In this document: piece after piece, positions 8,377-31,872 of the stretch
Numbering within the stretch: position 1 is the first letter of the stretch
Layout of the letters: each line of letters starts with the position of its first letter
NCBI RefSeq assembly: GCF_003044035.1
Contig: NZ_NVQC01000040.1
Location: 1,213-33,212 of the forward strand
Reading direction: 5' to 3'
Source: Candidatus Methylomirabilis limnetica
Lineage (GTDB): Bacteria > Methylomirabilota > Methylomirabilia > Methylomirabilales > Methylomirabilaceae
DNA length: 32,000 nucleotides
The notes under the pieces: model-generated
What the model was told of the DNA's origin: nothing
The model's input: the letters and a program-made list of their open reading frames with translations, nothing else
Databases searched by the model: none
Made by a program: the position numbers and the translations under genes

Positions 8377-9516
8377 GTGTCTAATCCTCTGCGGACAGCC
8401 GACTTTGACTACATCCTGCCCCCCGATCTGATTGCCCAGGCGCCCGCTCCAGAGCGTGATCGCTCGCGGCTCCTGGTCCTTGATCGGAACACGGGCGTCC
8501 TGCAACATCGAATCTTCCGAGATCTTCCAGAATACCTCCTTCCAGGAGATCTGTTGGTCGTCAATGAGGCTAAAGTGATCCCCGCCAGGCTCTTTGGTCG
8601 ATCCGAGCGGCGACATCTCATCGAGGTATTGCTCCTGTGTGAAGTTGAAGCCGATCCCGACTTAAAGCGTGCCGGAACAAGCTGCTGGGAGGCTTTGGTC
8701 AAGCCATCCAGACAGGTTCGGACCGGCGACCGCCTTGCCCTGGCAGATGAAACGATCACGGCCGAGGTGATAGAGAAACGCGGTGAGGGACGCCACCTGC
8801 TCAAGCTCGCGTATGACGGAAAACTCGCCGACCTCCTGTGGCAATTCGGCCAGATGCCGGTTCCACCGTACATCAAAAGGCAGCGATCAGCGATCAGCAG
8901 TCAGCAGTCAGCAAAAGACGATCTGACTTCTCCATACCCTATACCCTATCCCCTAGACCCTGTTCTTTTGGATCGCGAGCGGTACCAAACGGTATACGCA
9001 AAGCATGAAGGGGCCATTGCGGCGCCTACGGCCGGCCTCCACTTCACACCGGAACTGATCGAAACGCTTACGCGGCAGGGCGTCGCCGTAGCCCCGATCA
9101 CCCTCTATGTCGGCCCTGGTACGTTTCGTCCTATTCGGGTGGAGGAGGTTTCTGCGCATCAGATGGAGTCGGAGCGTTACATTGTTCCGGAACAGACGGC
9201 CCTGGCGGTCAAAGCCGCAAAGAGAGAGGGGCGGAGGGTGATCGCGGTCGGGACTACGACCGTCCGGGCACTTGAGCACGCCGCAGTCGATGGCGACGTG
9301 AGGTCCGGGGCCGGTGCAACAGACCTCTTTATCTATCCGGGCTATCGCTATAGGTGCATCGACGCCCTGATCACCAACTTTCATCTTCCTCGCTCCACCC
9401 TCTTCATGCTGGTCTCAGCCTTCGCAGGCCGGGATGCCGTCCTGGCTGCGTATTGTGAGGCTATCGCCCTACGCTACCGTTTCTATTCCTACGGCGACGC
9501 GATGTTGATTGTATGA
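8377..9516 (+). CDS. queA: tRNA preQ1(34) S-adenosylmethionine ribosyltransferase-isomerase QueA, carrying a repeat-derived insertion
   Basis: GTG start. Motifs: DFDYILPPDLIAQAP, PPYIKR...YQTVYA, APTAGLHFT, AVGTTTVRALE, TNFHLPRSTL, FYSYGDAMLI. Confidence 0.95.
   Translation: MSNPLRTADFDYILPPDLIAQAPAPERDRSRLLVLDRNTGVLQHRIFRDLPEYLLPGDLLVVNEAKVIPARLFGRSERRHLIEVLLLCEVEADPDLKRAGTSCWEALVKPSRQVRTGDRLALADETITAEVIEKRGEGRHLLKLAYDGKLADLLWQFGQMPVPPYIKRQRSAISSQQSAKDDLTSPYPIPYPLDPVLLDRERYQTVYAKHEGAIAAPTAGLHFTPELIETLTRQGVAVAPITLYVGPGTFRPIRVEEVSAHQMESERYIVPEQTALAVKAAKREGRRVIAVGTTTVRALEHAAVDGDVRSGAGATDLFIYPGYRYRCIDALITNFHLPRSTLFMLVSAFAGRDAVLAAYCEAIALRYRFYSYGDAMLIV
8881..8968. repeat. Heptamer repeats inside queA: TCAGC-type run, 20-nt spacer, ACCCT-type run
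   Basis: CAGCGAT CAGCGAT CAGCAGT CAGCAGT CAGCA (8881-8913), then ATACCCT ATACCCT ATCCCCT AGACCCT GTTCTTT (8934-8968). Confidence 0.9.
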
Positions 9517-9553
9517 TAAGGTAGCCGGATGGCAATCAGCGGATTCTGACCTA

Positions 9554-9588
9554 GCTGAAAGCTGAACGCTGAGTGCTAACAGCTTCAT
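9554..9588. repeat. Heptamer repeats, TCAGC-type in reverse orientation, in the queA-tgt spacer
   Basis: GCTGAAA GCTGAAC GCTGAGT GCTAACA GCTTCAT. The reverse complement closely resembles 31824-31851. Confidence 0.85.
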
Positions 9589-9598
9589 AGGAGCGATA

Positions 9599-29207: not shown

Positions 29208-29302
29208 CATAGTCGGTCTTCGATCAAGAAGTCTTTTCTAGGCGACGTTCATCTTCGCCACGATCCTTTACAGGGGAGGGCCGCCTCGGCTATAGTCGGG
29301 AT

Positions 29303-31813
29303 ATGGCCACCGAACCTGACCATCTTCTCGTTGAAATCGCCCTGCCGGTTCCCCCACGAAGGGTCCTGACGTATACCATCCCGTCCGATTTACAGAAACA
29401 GGTTGAGGTCGGCAAGCGAGCCCTCGTGCCGCTTGGCCCTCGCCTGGTGACCGGGTATATTGTCGGTCTCCACACGTTCAGCGATCAGCCGTCAGCCGTC
29501 AGGCATCAGGCATCAGAACTCAAGCCGATTGACGCGATCCTGGACCCCGAGCCGCTGCTAGATCACCACATGCTGGAGCTCACACGCCTTATAGCGGACT
29601 ACTATCTGACGTCGTGGGGGCTGGTTATTCGGGCAGCTCTGCCCCCTGGGATCGATCGTAGGACGGCTCGGACTGTCGAGCTCATCGAGTCTCCGGACCT
29701 TTTCCCACATACGTTAAGCGGGGAGCGCCTCACCCAAGAGGCCGGCAAGCTTGGCCCCCTCCAGCAGCAGATGCTTGCCGCTCTGCAAGTGCAACGCCGG
29801 ATGCTGCTTTCATCCCTCAAACAGCGGTGGCCGGACGAGGAGGTCGATCGTCTCATCCGCATGCTTGTCAGACAGAACCTGGCGAGGGTGGAATACCGCG
29901 AATGCCTGCCATTGGTTCGGCCTGCCTATCGGTCCTTGCTCGGCCTGGCCGTCGACCGCGCCTCTGCGGAGGCCGAGTTGGCCGCTCTCCGACGACGGGC
30001 GCCGCGACAGGCCTCGTTACTCGATCGCCTGCTGCAATCAGGATCAACACTCACGTCTGTAGAGGCCACAGTCCTCGCTGGCGCCTCCGGGGTTCGCGGC
30101 CTCATCGCCAAAGGCTTCATCCGTCGAGTTACGGAGGTGGTTGAGCGGTCTCCCTGGGAAGAGCCCGTTGTTGCCACGGGCTCCTGGCCTGAGCCCAACT
30201 CAGCCCAACAAACAGCGATTGATGGGCTCCTGGCGGGACTACCCTCTCGCACATTTTTCCCGGCACTGCTCCATGGCGCAACGGGGAGCGGGAAAACCGA
30301 GGTCTATCTTCGAGTGATCGGCGAGGTGGTACGACAGGGAAGGCAGGCGCTCGTACTCGTTCCGGAAATCGCCTTGACCCCTGTTACTGCCGATCGATTC
30401 CGCTCCCGCTTCGGGGACCGGGTCGCACTACTGCACAGCGGCCTCTCGCCTGGCGAGCGGCTGGATCAGTGGTACCGCATCAAGCGCGGGATGGCCGATA
30501 TCGTCGTGGGTACGCGGTCCGCGGTCTTCGCCCCTCTCTCTCGCCTTAGCCTCATCGTGGTCGATGAAGAGCACGACGACTCTTATAAGCAGCAAGATGA
30601 GCCGCGCTACCACGCGAGGGATGTAGCCCTGGCCAGAGGGCAGATGCTTGGGATTGCAGTCCTCCTTGGTTCCGCGACCCCAGCCTTTGAAAGTATCCAT
30701 CGTGCCAAGGAAGGGGCCTACCGACTATTCCTGCTTCCAGAGCGGGTTGAAGCCAGGACACTGCCCTCGATGACACTGATAGATATGCGCGAAGAACGTG
30801 CGAAGTGCGAGGTGCGAGGCGCTCCGCTCATCTTCTCCCGACGGCTGGCGGACGCGATCAAGGAGACGCTGGCTAAAGGGGAGCAGGTCTTGCTGTTCTT
30901 GAATCGACGGGGTTACGCCAGAGTACTGCTCTGCCGTGACTGCGGTTTCGCCTTGCACTGCCCACATTGCAGCCTACCGCTCATCTACCATGCGGTGGAC
31001 GCCAGGATGCGCTGCCATTACTGCGATCATCGAGAACGCCCGCCCGCCCGCTGTCCCAAGTGCGGTGGGTTCGCGTTCGGATTCCTAGGGTATGGGACGC
31101 AGCAGGTAGAGGCCGCTGCTCGGCTCCTTGCGCCGGACGCGACCATGACCAGGATGGATCGTGACACCACGCGGCGACGGCGGGCGCACCAGCAGATACT
31201 AAAGGCCGTTGAGCAGGGACAGACGCAGGTCCTGATCGGAACGCAGATGGTTGGGAAGGGGCACGACTTCCCCGGGATTACCTTGGTCGGGGTCCTCTCT
31301 GCCGATGCCTCGATGGTGCTCCCCGATTTCAGGGCCGGGGAACGAACCTATGCCCTGCTCACACAGGTGGCCGGACGGGCCGGCCGTGGCGACCGGCCTG
31401 GTCAGGTGCTGGTTCAGACCTACAACCCGGATCACTATAGTATCCTCGCAGCCCGCAATCACGATTATGAAGCACTGTACCGAATCGAGCAGCCACTCAG
31501 AGAGAAGCGCGGCCTTCCTCCCTTCGGCTTCCTCGTCCTGCTCCTGGTCACCTCTTCAAAAGAGGGCCACGCGCAAGAGAAAGCCGAACGGCTCACCAGC
31601 CTTCTCCTGGAACGGGCCGTTTCGTCCCTTACTATCGAGGGACCGGCTCCGGCGCCGCTTTACCGGCTGAAAGGACGCTATCGCTGGCAGATCCTCGCCA
31701 AAGGTCCTGACCCGAGTACACTGCATCACTGGGTCAAGGAGACGATTGCGCTGCTCCCGCCGTCAGAACAAGTGGGCATCGAGGTCGATGTCGATCCCGT
31801 CAATCTGTGTTGA
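29303..31813 (+). CDS. priA: Primosomal protein N' (replication restart helicase PriA)
   Basis: Walker A GATGSGKTEVY, DEEHD, Zn-binding CRDCG..CPHCS..CHYCD..CPKCG, and GTQMVGKGHDFP. Confidence 0.95.
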   Translation: MATEPDHLLVEIALPVPPRRVLTYTIPSDLQKQVEVGKRALVPLGPRLVTGYIVGLHTFSDQPSAVRHQASELKPIDAILDPEPLLDHHMLELTRLIADYYLTSWGLVIRAALPPGIDRRTARTVELIESPDLFPHTLSGERLTQEAGKLGPLQQQMLAALQVQRRMLLSSLKQRWPDEEVDRLIRMLVRQNLARVEYRECLPLVRPAYRSLLGLAVDRASAEAELAALRRRAPRQASLLDRLLQSGSTLTSVEATVLAGASGVRGLIAKGFIRRVTEVVERSPWEEPVVATGSWPEPNSAQQTAIDGLLAGLPSRTFFPALLHGATGSGKTEVYLRVIGEVVRQGRQALVLVPEIALTPVTADRFRSRFGDRVALLHSGLSPGERLDQWYRIKRGMADIVVGTRSAVFAPLSRLSLIVVDEEHDDSYKQQDEPRYHARDVALARGQMLGIAVLLGSATPAFESIHRAKEGAYRLFLLPERVEARTLPSMTLIDMREERAKCEVRGAPLIFSRRLADAIKETLAKGEQVLLFLNRRGYARVLLCRDCGFALHCPHCSLPLIYHAVDARMRCHYCDHRERPPARCPKCGGFAFGFLGYGTQQVEAAARLLAPDATMTRMDRDTTRRRRAHQQILKAVEQGQTQVLIGTQMVGKGHDFPGITLVGVLSADASMVLPDFRAGERTYALLTQVAGRAGRGDRPGQVLVQTYNPDHYSILAARNHDYEALYRIEQPLREKRGLPPFGFLVLLLVTSSKEGHAQEKAERLTSLLLERAVSSLTIEGPAPAPLYRLKGRYRWQILAKGPDPSTLHHWVKETIALLPPSEQVGIEVDVDPVNLC
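29479..29520. repeat. Six in-phase heptamers (42 nt, 14 codons) inside priA
   Basis: CAGCGAT CAGCCGT CAGCCGT CAGGCAT CAGGCAT CAGAACT, translated as SDQPSAVRHQASEL. Confidence 0.9.
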
Positions 31814-31820
31814 ACGAGCA

Positions 31821-31872
31821 GCTATTAGCACTCAGCCGTCAGCGTTCAGCTTCTCTTGCTGACTGCTGAAGG
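31821..31872. repeat. TCAGC-type heptamers in opposed orientation forming an imperfect hairpin downstream of priA
   Basis: CTCAGCC GTCAGCG TTCAGCT TCTCTTG CTGACTG CTGAAGG. 31836-31850 pairs with 31858-31872 (12 Watson-Crick pairs plus 1 G-U out of 15, loop TTCTCTT). It may act as the priA terminator, but no U-tract follows. Confidence 0.6.

What the first reader, a model, noticed from the sequence alone, without database searches (positions are those of the whole stretch)
8881..31872. Family of heptanucleotide tandem repeats (TCAGC-type and ACCCT-type) at ten or more loci, in both genes and spacers
Two 7-nt repeat types recur through the window.

TCAGC-type units occur at:
- 8881-8913
- 9554-9588 (reverse orientation)
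- 17923-17943
- 22703-22737
- 29479-29520
- 31821-31872

A GCTGAAGG fragment also abuts both copies of the repeated cassette (about 2011-2019 and 31865-31872).

ACCCT-type units occur at:
- 8934-8968
- 22738-22772
- 23471-23491 (reverse orientation)
- 24711-24745 (reverse orientation)

Where both types co-occur the order is the same: TCAGC-type, then ACCCT-type, then GTT(C/T)TT. That holds in queA, in slt, and on the reverse strand at 24711-24745, and it suggests a composite DNA element rather than random slippage. Formally these resemble the STRR heptamer repeats of heterocystous cyanobacteria (from memory CCCCAGT, TTGGTCA, CAACAGT). I am not aware of such repeats being described for a non-cyanobacterial denitrifier-type genome.
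Basis: partly seen in the sequence, partly recalled or inferred. Interest (0 to 1): 0.75.

Follow-up and report, generated by a model that had tools for sequence, protein, structure and literature searches.

The report
Heptamer-repeat hairpin elements in Methylomirabilis
This stretch of a Methylomirabilis (NC10) genome carries many short runs of 7-base repeats, far more than chance allows, which often form the two arms of small hairpin elements (one is a clear IS66-type miniature transposon) and even sit in frame inside housekeeping genes. It is a new host and a new variant of a known class of bacterial repeat, not a new kind of system.

Summary
Every listed run is present, and only period 7 is enriched: 8 arrays, against 0-1 for each other period from 4 to 12 and about 0.05 in shuffles.

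The two-type scheme is too simple:
- 17923-17943 is the inner arm of a 156-nt IS66-type MITE (17808-17963). It has a 14-nt perfect inverted terminus and an 8-bp target duplication, and the site is empty in sister genomes.
- The slt "TCAGC" run is TCAGGGG, the complement of its ACCCT partner.
- A third type, GTGCGAG, lies in priA.

In relatives the queA insert is a true hairpin, (AGGGTAT)4-loop-(ACCCTAT)4. The window has a swapped first arm. Every listed homologue from the Methylomirabilis lineage (54-99% identical) is variable at that QueA loop, and nearly all carry a heptamer-derived insert. The first arm differs between proteins 95-99% identical elsewhere. Orthologous spacer arrays differ by whole 7-nt units.

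Tandem TCAGCNN can never make a stop codon in sense and always makes TGA in antisense. This explains the orientation inside genes.

TCAGC arrays, often as inverted pairs, also occur in many other phyla. Heptamer excess is already known in bacteria (Mrázek 2007; STRR; TAACTGA; GGGAATC).

Verdict: a new variant of a known kind, of moderate interest.

The parts
8881..8913 (+). Arm 1 of the queA insert: CAGCGAT x2, CAGCAGT x2, CAGC. It encodes QRSAISSQQSA (QueA residues 169-179).
   Evidence: It lies in a segment of about 28 residues that is absent from solved QueA structures. Relatives carry AGGGTAT, GGTGCGA or GAGAGCC arrays at the same place.
8914..8933 (+). Spacer (former loop) of the queA insert: AAAAGACGATCTGACTTCTCC.
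   Evidence: It is conserved with L131. AAAAGAC repeats the 7 nt that precede arm 1 in relatives.
8934..8968 (+). Arm 2 of the queA insert: ATACCCT ATACCCT ATCCCCT AGACCCT plus GTTCTT. It encodes PYPIPYPLDPVLL.
   Evidence: (D3: 91% identical to 22738-22770). In L006/L007 it pairs with an AGGGTAT arm (DNA fold -24.1 kcal/mol, z -4.7).
9535..9588 (+). Hairpin in the queA-tgt spacer: a one-unit TCAGC remnant, a loop, then AGCTGAA AGCTGAA CGCTGAG TGCTAAC AGCT.
   Evidence: I3; z -2.2. Orthologous hairpins in L007, L130, L131 and L009 have 2-4 units in the right arm. The element is absent in L132.
17800..17807 (.). Left copy of the 8-bp target-site duplication of the MITE (CCCAGAGG).
17808..17963 (.). 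156-nt IS66-type MITE in the nirS-nirJ spacer. The terminal inverted repeat is GTAACTACTCAGGT. The arms are 7-nt periodic (CTCAGGT AGATAGG CTGAAGG ... CCTTCAG TCTTCAG CCTTCAG).
   Evidence: (I4). The site is empty in L007, L130 and L134. A copy of the same family lies in the tgt-yajC spacer of L007 and L130, where the window is empty. The 18-nt terminus occurs in at least 120 metagenome stretches. The 8-bp flanks match at 7 or 8 of 8 positions in 40 of 74 copies. A 1471-nt copy encodes an IS66-family DDE transposase.
17964..17971 (.). Right copy of the 8-bp target-site duplication (CCCGGAGG).
22703..22730 (+). Arm 1 of the slt linker insert: TCAGGGG TCAGTGG TCAGGGG TTAGCCG. It encodes PSGVSGQGLA.
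   Evidence: The same linker site is variable across Slt homologues (for example QQSAVSSQQSA in P0134) and lacks an arm 1 in most homologues below about 67% identity.
22738..22772 (+). Arm 2 of the slt insert: GTACCCT GTACCCT ATCCCCT CAACCCT plus GTTCTT. It encodes VPCTLSPQPCSS.
   Evidence: (D3).
23471..23491 (+). AGGGTGG x2.5 at the slt stop codon, 19 nt upstream of the likely coaBC start (ATG 23510).
   Evidence: At the orthologous junction L134 and M. oxyfera L135 carry GGCTGAAG x3. These score as a remnant of the IS66-MITE end (nhmmer E 5.5e-5 and 7e-4).
24711..24745 (+). (AGGGTAG AGGGTGG) x2 followed by AGCTGAG. It contains the coaBC stop codon (TAG 24731-24733) and ends 2 nt before the udg ATG (24748).
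   Evidence: Degenerate AGGGT arrays lie at the same junction in L134 and L135.
29478..29520 (+). Six-unit TCAG array in priA: TCAGCGA TCAGCCG TCAGCCG TCAGGCA TCAGGCA TCAGAAC. It encodes FSDQPSAVRHQASEL.
   Evidence: It adds about 6 residues relative to the solved PriA structure 8fak_H. Orthologous arrays in L134 and L135 are shorter or degenerate.
30798..30819 (+). GTGCGAA GTGCGAG GTGCGAG G array in priA.
   Evidence: The same unit type forms arrays and hairpins in L130 and L132.
31820..31872 (+). Hairpin 7 nt after the priA stop codon: AGCTATT AGCAC TCAGCCG TCAGCGT TCAGC, loop TTCTCTT, then GCTGACTGCTGAAGG.
   Evidence: I3; z -2.0. An orthologous hairpin, TCAGCCGTCAGC...GCTGACGGCTGA, follows priA in M. 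oxyfera.
2005..2015 (-). GCTGAAGG fragment at the outer edge of the first DUF6788 cassette copy. Its counterpart lies at 31865-31872.
   Evidence: (I1, I2).

Best explanation
The heptamer runs are non-coding, largely selfish or neutral DNA. They are 7-nt-periodic arrays that are, or once were, the arms of small inverted-repeat (hairpin) elements.

Proposed life cycle:
1. A hairpin element arrives at a permissive site. Shown for one family: an IS66-type MITE with an 8-bp target duplication. Inferred for the rest.
2. Its arms then grow and shrink in whole 7-nt steps by replication slippage. Variant units spread within an array. This gives runs such as CAGCGAT x2 CAGCAGT x2 and (AGGGTAG AGGGTGG) x2. 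Shown as unit-number differences between orthologous copies.
3. Arms are lost, or are exchanged as blocks by recombination. The donor may be another array in the same genome or an allele from a related lineage; this was not resolved.
4. Inside genes only frame-compatible versions survive. Tandem TCAGCNN has no stop codon in any frame for any NN. Its complement always yields TGA. Hence in-gene arrays are all in the TCAGC sense, and the GCTGA partner arm is missing or replaced by a stop-free ACCCT arm. This produces the apparent 'TCAGC then ACCCT' composite.
5. In spacers the elements persist as hairpins just after stop codons (queA, priA). They also persist as purine-rich AGG/GGAGG-containing tracts just before start codons (coaBC, udg). 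There they may be co-opted as RNA hairpins or ribosome-binding sequence (inferred, not tested).
For: Period specificity and enrichment:
- Only period 7 is enriched.

Hairpin architecture:
- In L006/L007 the queA insert is (AGGGTAT)4-loop-(ACCCTAT)4, with arms 23/26 complementary and a DNA fold z-score of -4.7.
- L133 has GAGAGCC/CGGCTCG arms at the same site. L132 has GTGCGAG/CGCACTC arms inside a histidine-kinase gene.
- Hairpins follow queA and priA.
- Of 142 cross-phylum TCAGC arrays, 52 have an inverted partner within 300 nt (folds).

Mobility:
- The MITE at 17808-17963 has a terminal inverted repeat and an 8-bp duplication. Filled and empty sites are reciprocal between the window and L007/L130.
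- The terminus occurs in at least 120 metagenome stretches, with 8-bp duplications.
- A full-length copy encodes DDE_Tnp_IS66. An 8-bp duplication is listed for the IS66-family elements in PMC3281130.
- The array at the slt-coaBC junction in L134/L135 scores as a MITE-end remnant.

Slippage:
- Orthologous queA-tgt hairpins have 2-4 right-arm units.
- The priA array has different unit numbers in three species.

Block exchange:
- QueA proteins 95-99% identical outside the insert carry unrelated first arms.
- Between the window and L006 the DNA boundaries of the exchanged block are sharp.
- The TCAGC allele, including its non-repeat spacer, is shared with L131, whose QueA is only 82% identical overall.

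Frame logic:
- 16 of 16 NN variants are stop-free in sense and 0 of 16 in antisense.
- All three in-gene TCAG arrays here are in sense. All 63 cross-phylum arrays lying within open frames of at least 150 codons are in sense.
- The slt and coaBC stop codons are TAGs supplied by AGGGT units.
Against: - Mobility is demonstrated for only one of about eleven loci.
- The window's queA, slt and priA arrays give no match to the MITE-end profile.
- They do not fold better than shuffles in this genome (z -0.1 to -0.6).
- They sit at sites occupied across the whole lineage, so no filled/empty pair with clean ends was found for them.
- Cross-phylum TCAGC hairpins show no systematic 8-bp duplication and no MITE-end match.
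- The full-length IS66 copy (L159) has no heptamer arrays inside its termini. The arrays are therefore not simply transposase-binding sites inherited from the parent insertion sequence.
- No IS66 transposase attributed to NC10 appeared among the top 120 homologues.
- There is no unit-number polymorphism within the strain.
- Why 7 nt, and why the same TCAGC core recurs in many phyla, is not explained.
Confidence: 0.55

Rival explanations
1. These are pure in-situ simple-sequence repeats. DNA polymerase slippage favours 7-nt steps (Mrázek's polymerase-footprint idea). On this view each array arose and evolves where it lies, with no mobility and no element structure.
For: - The excess is strictly at period 7.
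- Adjacent identical units and 14-nt super-periods are present.
- Orthologues differ by whole units.
- Heptamers are reported as the commonest long simple-sequence-repeat class in most of the prokaryotic genomes surveyed (PMC4679880 introduction; PMC4692102).
Against: - It does not explain the inverted pairing of arms.
- It does not explain dispersed copies that share non-periodic quirks (D3 and I3).
- It does not explain the MITE with a target duplication and reciprocal empty sites.
- It does not explain wholesale arm replacement between genes 95-99% identical elsewhere.
- It does not explain the recurrence of the TCAGC core across phyla at far above the roughly 4 matches I estimate by chance for the whole collection.
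Confidence: 0.2
2. These are functional cis-elements: periodic binding sites for a nucleic-acid-binding protein, or structured RNA acting on termination, mRNA stability or translation initiation. A similar role was proposed for the TAACTGA repeats that lie just upstream of start codons in Beggiatoaceae.
For: - Arrays hold the same junctions across species, including M. oxyfera: slt-coaBC, coaBC-udg, after priA and after queA.
- AGGGTGG and CTGAAGG units place AGG/GGAGG motifs every 7 nt in front of start codons.
- The spacer hairpins fold better than shuffles (z about -2).
Against: - The unit sequence at a given junction is not conserved: AGGGTGG here against GCTGAAG in relatives.
- Orientation relative to transcription is inconsistent.
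- About half of the arrays lie inside protein loops, where they encode unconserved peptides.
- No Rfam family matches.
- The in-gene arrays in the window do not fold.
Confidence: 0.17
3. The in-gene runs are ordinary coding sequence: selected low-complexity linkers whose nucleotide periodicity is incidental.
For: All in-gene arrays are in frame and lie in loops or linkers. The second slt arm (PCTLSPQPCS) is conserved down to about 70% identity.
Against: - The peptides at the QueA site are unrelated between near-identical proteins and show 7-residue periodicity in all three frames.
- The same heptamers occur in spacers on both strands.
- The solved QueA structures have no insert at this position.
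Confidence: 0.03
4. The in-gene arrays are contingency (phase-variation) switches. Gain or loss of one 7-nt unit would shift the frame of queA, slt or priA and switch the gene off reversibly.
For: Heptamer arrays slip in whole units between species, and one unit is not a multiple of three. Simple-sequence repeats drive phase variation in several pathogens (background in PMC4679880 and PMC4692102).
Against: - Five independent assemblies of the strain carry identical arrays.
- All orthologous in-gene inserts are in frame.
- The arrays are short (3-6 imperfect units).
- The genes are housekeeping genes.
Confidence: 0.05

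Closest known systems
Heptanucleotide long simple-sequence repeats of prokaryotes (Mrázek, Guo & Shah 2007, as summarised in PMC4679880 and PMC4692102)
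   Same: Both are tandem 7-nt units in excess over other periods, with a sporadic phylogenetic distribution and whole-unit length changes between relatives.
   Different: The arrays here are short (2.5-6 units) and imperfect, with a conserved 4-5-nt core and 2-3 variable positions. They are frequently arranged as inverted pairs, are partly embedded in a MITE, and are often in frame inside genes. The 2007 survey noted that in-gene repeats are mostly multiples of three.
Cyanobacterial STRR heptamers
   Same: Both comprise several heptamer families that coexist in one genome and are dispersed at many loci.
   Different: None of the STRR units occurs in tandem in the window. The host is NC10, not a heterocystous cyanobacterium.
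Heptamer-repeat P6b stem-loop of the Nostoc tRNA-Leu(UAA) intron, Class I and Class II (PMC4476775)
   Same: Both are hairpins whose arms are 7-nt repeats. Both change length by gain or loss of 7-nt units on one or both sides of the stem. Both show repeated replacement of one repeat class by another at the same site, giving a patchy distribution on the tree. This is the closest match to what is seen at the QueA loop.
   Different: The Nostoc case lies in a group I intron RNA in a cyanobacterium. The elements here lie in protein-coding loops and spacers of NC10 bacteria and have different unit sequences.
TAACTGA direct repeats of marine Beggiatoaceae, some Cyanobacteria and Bacteroidetes (PMC4679880)
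   Same: Both are heptamers found outside cyanobacteria, with arrays of 2-6 copies. Many of those repeats lie within a few nucleotides upstream of start codons, as at coaBC and udg here. The reverse complement, TCAGTTA, shares the TCAG core.
   Different: TAACTGA does not occur in tandem in the window. Those repeats are almost all direct rather than inverted (one inverted set in the Guaymas filament genome) and mostly intergenic.
GGGAATC repeats of Xanthomonas and GGGGA(T/C)T repeats of Nostoc (PMC4692102)
   Same: Both are heptamers with a conserved core and variable positions. Both occupy the same intergenic sites in related species with extensive length variation. Some occur as inverted pairs.
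   Different: Those are G-quadruplex-forming units, and they do not occur in tandem here. They were not reported as in-frame gene inserts or as MITE arms in the passages I read.
IS66-family insertion sequences and their MITE derivatives
   Same: For 17808-17963: a terminus beginning GTAA, an 8-bp target duplication (the duplication length listed for the IS66-family elements in PMC3281130), and a full-length relative that encodes DDE_Tnp_IS66 plus zf-IS66.
   Different: The MITE interior consists of heptamer arrays that the full-length copy lacks. The other window arrays do not match the MITE end.
Very small dispersed repeats (SDR) of Nostoc (Elhai et al. 2008, cited in PMC3116915; content from memory) and Rickettsia palindromic elements (from memory)
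   Same: Both are miniature elements that insert into hairpin or heptamer-repeat contexts (SDR) or in frame into protein-coding genes without destroying them (Rickettsia elements). L130 shows a G6/C6 hairpin nested next to a heptamer array in queA.
   Different: No sequence relationship was tested.

Membership tests
Heptanucleotide long simple-sequence repeats | Head-to-tail copies of a 7-nt unit, longer and more frequent than composition predicts | tested here: met
   8 arrays at period 7, against 0-1 for each other period and about 0.05 in shuffles.
Heptanucleotide long simple-sequence repeats | Unit-number variation between related genomes (slippage) | tested here: met
   Between species, the queA-tgt right arm has 2-4 units and the priA array varies. 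Within the strain there is no variation across five contigs.
Cyanobacterial STRR | Unit is CCCCAGT, TTGGTCA or CAACAGT in tandem | tested here: not met
   no tandem occurrence of any STRR unit in the window.
Cyanobacterial STRR | Host is a (heterocystous) cyanobacterium | tested here: not met
   Gene content (nirS, nirJ, napA-like) and named homologues point to Methylomirabilis/NC10.
TAACTGA repeats (Beggiatoaceae type) | Unit TAACTGA in direct tandem | tested here: not met
   one single copy and no tandem.
TAACTGA repeats (Beggiatoaceae type) | Arrays concentrated just upstream of start codons | tested here: inconclusive
   Two of about eleven arrays (23471-23491 and 24711-24745) lie 2-19 nt upstream of starts. 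The others lie inside genes or after stop codons.
IS66-family MITE | Terminal inverted repeats | tested here: met
   For 17808-17963: 14 nt perfect and 32 nt at 88%. This is not met for the other arrays (nhmmer).
IS66-family MITE | 8-bp target-site duplication | tested here: met
   CCCAGAGG/CCCGGAGG in the window and ACCGTAGC/ACCGTGGC in L130. In 40 of 74 metagenome copies the flanks match at 7 or 8 of 8 positions. 8 bp is the duplication listed for the IS66-family elements in PMC3281130.
IS66-family MITE | Presence/absence polymorphism at orthologous sites | tested here: met
   The nirS-nirJ spacer is filled in the window and empty in L007, L130 and L134. The tgt-yajC spacer is filled in L007 and L130 and empty in the window, L131 and L009.
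IS66-family MITE | An autonomous relative with the same termini that encodes an IS66 transposase | tested here: met
   The 1471-nt L159 element has the same termini and an 8-bp duplication (taaatttc). Its ORF matches PF03050 DDE_Tnp_IS66 at E 7e-31. No copy was shown to come from an NC10 genome.
Heptamer-repeat hairpin of the Nostoc trnL P6b type | A stem-loop whose two arms are complementary 7-nt repeat arrays | tested here: met
   Met in relatives (L006, L007, L133, L132) and in the window spacers. The window's own queA and slt inserts no longer fold (z -0.1 and -0.6).
Heptamer-repeat hairpin of the Nostoc trnL P6b type | Located in the P6b region of the tRNA-Leu(UAA) group I intron | tested here: not met
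   The elements here lie in protein genes and spacers. No Rfam family matched the window at gathering threshold.
REP/REPIN elements | 20-40-nt imperfect palindromes with conserved GTAG or CGTC heads, associated with a RAYT transposase | not tested
   No RAYT gene was searched for. The arrays lack the REP head motifs on inspection (PMC3733652 was seen only as a title and abstract).

The most novel reading that the evidence does not exclude
Heptamer-array hairpins, of which TCAGCNN is one widespread type, may be a previously unrecognised class of miniature element. It would span many phyla (Acidobacteriota, Chloroflexota, Planctomycetota, Verrucomicrobiota, NC10, Cyanobacteria and others). The arms would be built and rebuilt in 7-nt steps. 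At least some members would be mobilised by IS66-type transposases. The elements would colonise permissive protein loops, creating hypervariable in-frame cassettes that are exchanged between near-identical genes.
Probability: 0.25. Interest if true: 0.65.

Novelty: new variant of a known kind. Interest (0 to 1): 0.5.

Why it matters
- It extends the long-standing, unexplained excess of 7-nt repeats in bacteria to the NC10 methane oxidisers.
- It provides concrete handles on the origin of such repeats: a MITE whose arms are heptamer arrays, with clean filled and empty sites, and a single protein loop (QueA) that is variable in every listed homologue from the lineage and whose arm type switches between almost identical genes.
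- The stop-codon rule (tandem TCAGCNN is always open in sense and always closed in antisense) is a simple, testable explanation of which arrays can persist inside genes.
- For annotation: these inserts inflate protein lengths, supply stop codons and ribosome-binding-like tracts at gene junctions, and can mislead gene callers. In L001 queA was called 59 residues short, starting just after the insert.
- The arrays may also serve as high-resolution strain markers for Methylomirabilis.

Tried and rejected
- Rfam gathering-threshold scan of the window and 13 array-bearing loci: no family matched.
- Copy-number polymorphism within the strain: five contigs are identical at the sites they cover.
- Folding of the window's in-gene arrays as hairpins: no better than shuffles. 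The hairpin reading therefore rests on relatives and on the spacer copies.
- Profile of the MITE end against the window and NC10 relatives: it hits only the MITEs and the slt-coaBC junction of L134/L135, not the queA, slt or priA arrays. It gives no hits in the 120 cross-phylum loci.
- Search for 8-bp duplications around cross-phylum TCAGC hairpins: barely distinguishable from the displaced-flank control, and no perfect match. The exception is Okeania L065 when read by eye (GTAAGC...GCTTAC flanked by ATTTAATT on both sides).
- tblastn of the IS66 transposase against all fetched DNA: only L159 matched.
- Homologue search for that transposase: no NC10-labelled protein in the top 120.
- Literature searches found no paper combining 'Methylomirabilis' with 'heptamer', and the five papers combining it with 'tandem repeat' did not concern such repeats.
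- Mrázek 2007 and Elhai 2008 could not be opened. They are cited second-hand or from memory.
- A stepwise mutational path between unit types (CTGAAGG to GTGGAGG at the slt-coaBC junction) is plausible there. It was rejected as the general explanation for arm switching, because near-identical QueA genes carry unrelated arms.

Full report
**Source and context**

The window carries the following genes:
- ruvCAB, queA (8377-9516), tgt, yajC;
- a nir/nap-like cluster with nirJ and nirS on the minus strand;
- an IF-2B-family gene, slt (21183-23474), coaBC, udg and priA (29303-31813).

Homologues named by their sources are Candidatus Methylomirabilis or NC10. The closed M. oxyfera genome encodes an Slt only 72% identical, so the window comes from another Methylomirabilis species.

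Yes.
- Tandem Repeats Finder and direct reading confirm every listed run.
- Against dinucleotide-preserving shuffles: TCAGCNNTCAGC occurs 11 times against 0.13 expected. ACCCTNNACCCT occurs 7 times against 0.03. Three-unit TCAG occurs 10 times against 0.01. Three-unit CCCT occurs 6 times against 0.
- A period scan gives 8 arrays at period 7 and 0-1 at each other period from 4 to 12.
- The arrays are identical in five independent assemblies of the same strain.
- Orthologous arrays exist in related genomes, including FP565575.

**Corrections to the two-type scheme**

1. 17923-17943 belongs to a 156-nt element at 17808-17963.
   - Its terminus is GTAACTACTCAGGT and it is flanked by CCCAGAGG/CCCGGAGG.
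   - Three sister genomes have the uninterrupted spacer.
   - Two of them (L007 and L130) carry a copy of the same family in the tgt-yajC spacer, flanked by ACCGTAGC/ACCGTGGC, where the window is uninterrupted.
   - The 18-nt terminus occurs in at least 120 metagenome stretches (the scan hit its limit).
   - 76 copies have both termini. Most are 60-270 nt long. The 8-bp flanks match at 7 or 8 of 8 positions in 40 of 74 copies.
   - A 1471-nt copy with the same termini and a perfect 8-bp duplication encodes a protein matching DDE_Tnp_IS66 (E 7e-31) and, more weakly and below Pfam's cut-off, zf-IS66.
   - An 8-bp duplication is what PMC3281130 lists for its IS66-family elements.
   - The MITE arms are 7-nt periodic (CTCAGGT AGATAGG CTGAAGG ...). 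The number of CTNNAGN units varies between copies. The full-length copy lacks these arrays.
2. The slt 'TCAGC' run is TCAGGGG/TCAGTGG, the partial complement of the ACCCT arm that follows it.
3. A GTGCGAG-type array lies at 30798-30819. The same unit forms arrays and hairpins in relatives.

**What the queA insert is**

- Solved QueA structures align on both sides of residues 170-196 but not across them, so the element is an insertion of about 28 residues.
- All 120 listed homologues, which appear to come from the Methylomirabilis lineage (54-99% identical), are variable at that loop. Nearly all carry an insert; a few have almost none.
- The inserted peptides have 7-residue periodicity. That is what heptamer arrays give when read through all three frames.
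- At the DNA level:
  - L006/L007 have (AGGGTAT)4-loop-(ACCCTAT)4. This is a strong hairpin (23/26 complementary; DNA fold -24.1 kcal/mol, z -4.7).
  - L133 has GAGAGCC/CGGCTCG arms.
  - L130 has (GGTGCGA)4 next to a nested G6/C6 hairpin.
  - L009 keeps only the ACCCT arm.
  - The window, L131 and L132 have a TCAGC-type first arm with an ACCCT-type or CCCCATC-type second arm.
- The window's version no longer folds (z -0.1).
- First arms differ completely between proteins that are 95-99% identical outside the insert: the window against P0003 (96.3%), P0012 against P0017 (95.4%) and P0109 against P0116 (99.4%).
- The TCAGC allele, including its non-repeat spacer, is shared between the window and L131, whose QueA is only 82% identical.
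- This is block exchange, not gradual drift. It parallels the repeated Class II to Class I replacements in the heptamer-repeat P6b hairpin of the Nostoc trnL intron (PMC4476775).
- The slt linker behaves in the same way.

**Spacer arrays**

- The queA-tgt hairpin is present in five genomes with 2-4 right-arm units. It is absent in L132.
- A hairpin of TCAGC/GCTGA units follows priA both here and in M. oxyfera.
- At the slt-coaBC junction the window has AGGGTGG x2.5. L134 and M. oxyfera have GGCTGAAG x3, which scores as a remnant of the IS66-MITE end (E 5.5e-5 and 7e-4).
- At coaBC-udg all three genomes have AGGGT-type arrays.
- The slt and coaBC stop codons are TAGs inside AGGGT units. The arrays place AGG/GGAGG motifs 2-19 nt before the next start codon.

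**Reading-frame rule**

- Tandem TCAGCNN contains no stop codon in any frame for any of the 16 NN variants. Its complement always contains TGA.
- For ACCCTNN, 11 of 16 variants are open in sense and 7 of 16 in antisense.
- This explains three things. In-gene TCAG arrays are all in sense. The GCTGA partner arm is never found inside a gene. A stop-free ACCCT arm can follow a TCAGC arm.
- In L006 the third AGGGT unit carries AG instead of AT exactly where AGG GTA TAG would otherwise arise (by reading).

**Beyond NC10**

- A scan of 185,579 species genomes for TCAGCNNTCAGCNNTCAGCNNTCAG (19 specified bases) reached its limit at 120 stretches. I estimate about 4 chance matches for the whole collection from its size.
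- The hits are dominated by Acidobacteriota. They also include Chloroflexota, Planctomycetota, Verrucomicrobiota, Poribacteria, Omnitrophota, Cyanobacteria and others.
- Of 142 arrays, 52 have an inverted partner within 300 nt (median gap 39 nt). They fold into long stems with periodic mismatches.
- 63 arrays lie in open frames of at least 150 codons, all in sense.
- These arrays do not match the MITE end and show no systematic duplication. One Okeania copy is bounded by GTAAGC...GCTTAC with a perfect 8-bp duplication.
- No Rfam family matches.

**Interpretation**

The best reading (confidence about 0.55) is as follows.
- These are arms, or remnants of arms, of small hairpin elements.
- They arrive by transposition in at least one family.
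- They then evolve by 7-nt slippage, by spread of variant units within an array, by arm loss and by block recombination.
- They are filtered by reading-frame compatibility inside genes and are possibly co-opted in spacers.

The rivals are:
- pure in-situ slippage (0.2);
- a regulatory or protein-binding role (0.17);
- phase variation (0.05);
- ordinary coding sequence (0.03).

Two questions remain unexplained: why the period is 7, and why the TCAGC core recurs across phyla.

**Novelty**

- Heptamer excess in bacteria is established: Mrázek 2007 (via PMC4679880 and PMC4692102), STRR, TAACTGA and GGGAATC.
- My full-text searches found no report of such repeats in Methylomirabilis or NC10.
- I did not find the following described: the MITE with heptamer-array arms, the lineage-wide hypervariable QueA cassette, the stop-codon rule and the cross-phylum TCAGC hairpins. 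My literature access was limited.
- I rate this a new variant of a known kind, with interest 0.5.

Noticed in passing
window 1528-2013 and 31874-32000: Two inverted copies (86-88% identical over at least 128 nt) of a cassette holding a small DUF6788-family gene and its upstream region. Both copies are bounded on the outside by TGCTGAAGG, so the duplication ends in a GCTGA-type heptamer unit.
   Followed up: partly
window 11113-11210: A 98-nt insertion relative to L007 and L134, downstream of yajC. It folds as a hairpin with ends TTATTACGGGGAGC...GCTCTGAGTAATAA. This looks like another miniature inverted-repeat element. Its right end resembles the IS66-MITE terminus (TACTCAG).
   Followed up: partly
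window 29050-29201: A 152-nt insertion relative to L134, upstream of priA. It consists of four consecutive GC-rich near-perfect palindromes (for example GATACCCCGCAGCAAGCTGCGGGGTATC). This is a different, REP-like kind of small element.
   Followed up: partly
L159 486-1956 (metagenome contig Ga0115031_1048767): A full-length single-ORF IS66-family element (453-residue DDE_Tnp_IS66 protein with a DUF6444 N-terminus). It shares the 18-nt terminus of the window's MITE but lies in 35% G+C DNA. MITE-bearing contigs range from 33% to 66% G+C, so the terminus appears to be shared across very different hosts.
   Followed up: partly
L130 10487-10615: In this relative the queA insert holds (GGTGCGA)4 followed by a nested hairpin, AATCCCCCC...GGGGGGATT. 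This looks like a second small element inserted beside the heptamer array.
   Followed up: no
L132 2112-2176 and 13966-14049: A (GTGCGAG)3/(CGCACTC)5 hairpin inside a HAMP/GAF histidine-kinase gene, and a 12-unit CGCACCT array at the 3' end of the neighbouring methyltransferase gene (14048-14857) and the spacer beyond it, in a Methylomirabilis-lineage relative whose QueA is 72% identical.
   Followed up: no
window 21140-21236: Repeats of 8-9-nt period (AGCGTCAT; CAATAGACG) at the end of the IF-2B-family gene and the start of slt. They are also present in L134. At the same junction M. oxyfera instead has (AGGGTAT)6.
   Followed up: no
L001 8956-9918: In one public assembly queA was called as 320 residues, starting just after the heptamer insert, instead of 379. 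The DNA there is identical, which suggests the insert misled the gene caller.
   Followed up: no
window 17996-18028: A GC-rich perfect hairpin (CTACGGGGCGAGCC...GGCTCGCCCCGTAG) lies immediately downstream of nirS. It is conserved in L007, L130 and L134 and looks like a terminator. It is separate from the neighbouring MITE.
   Followed up: no
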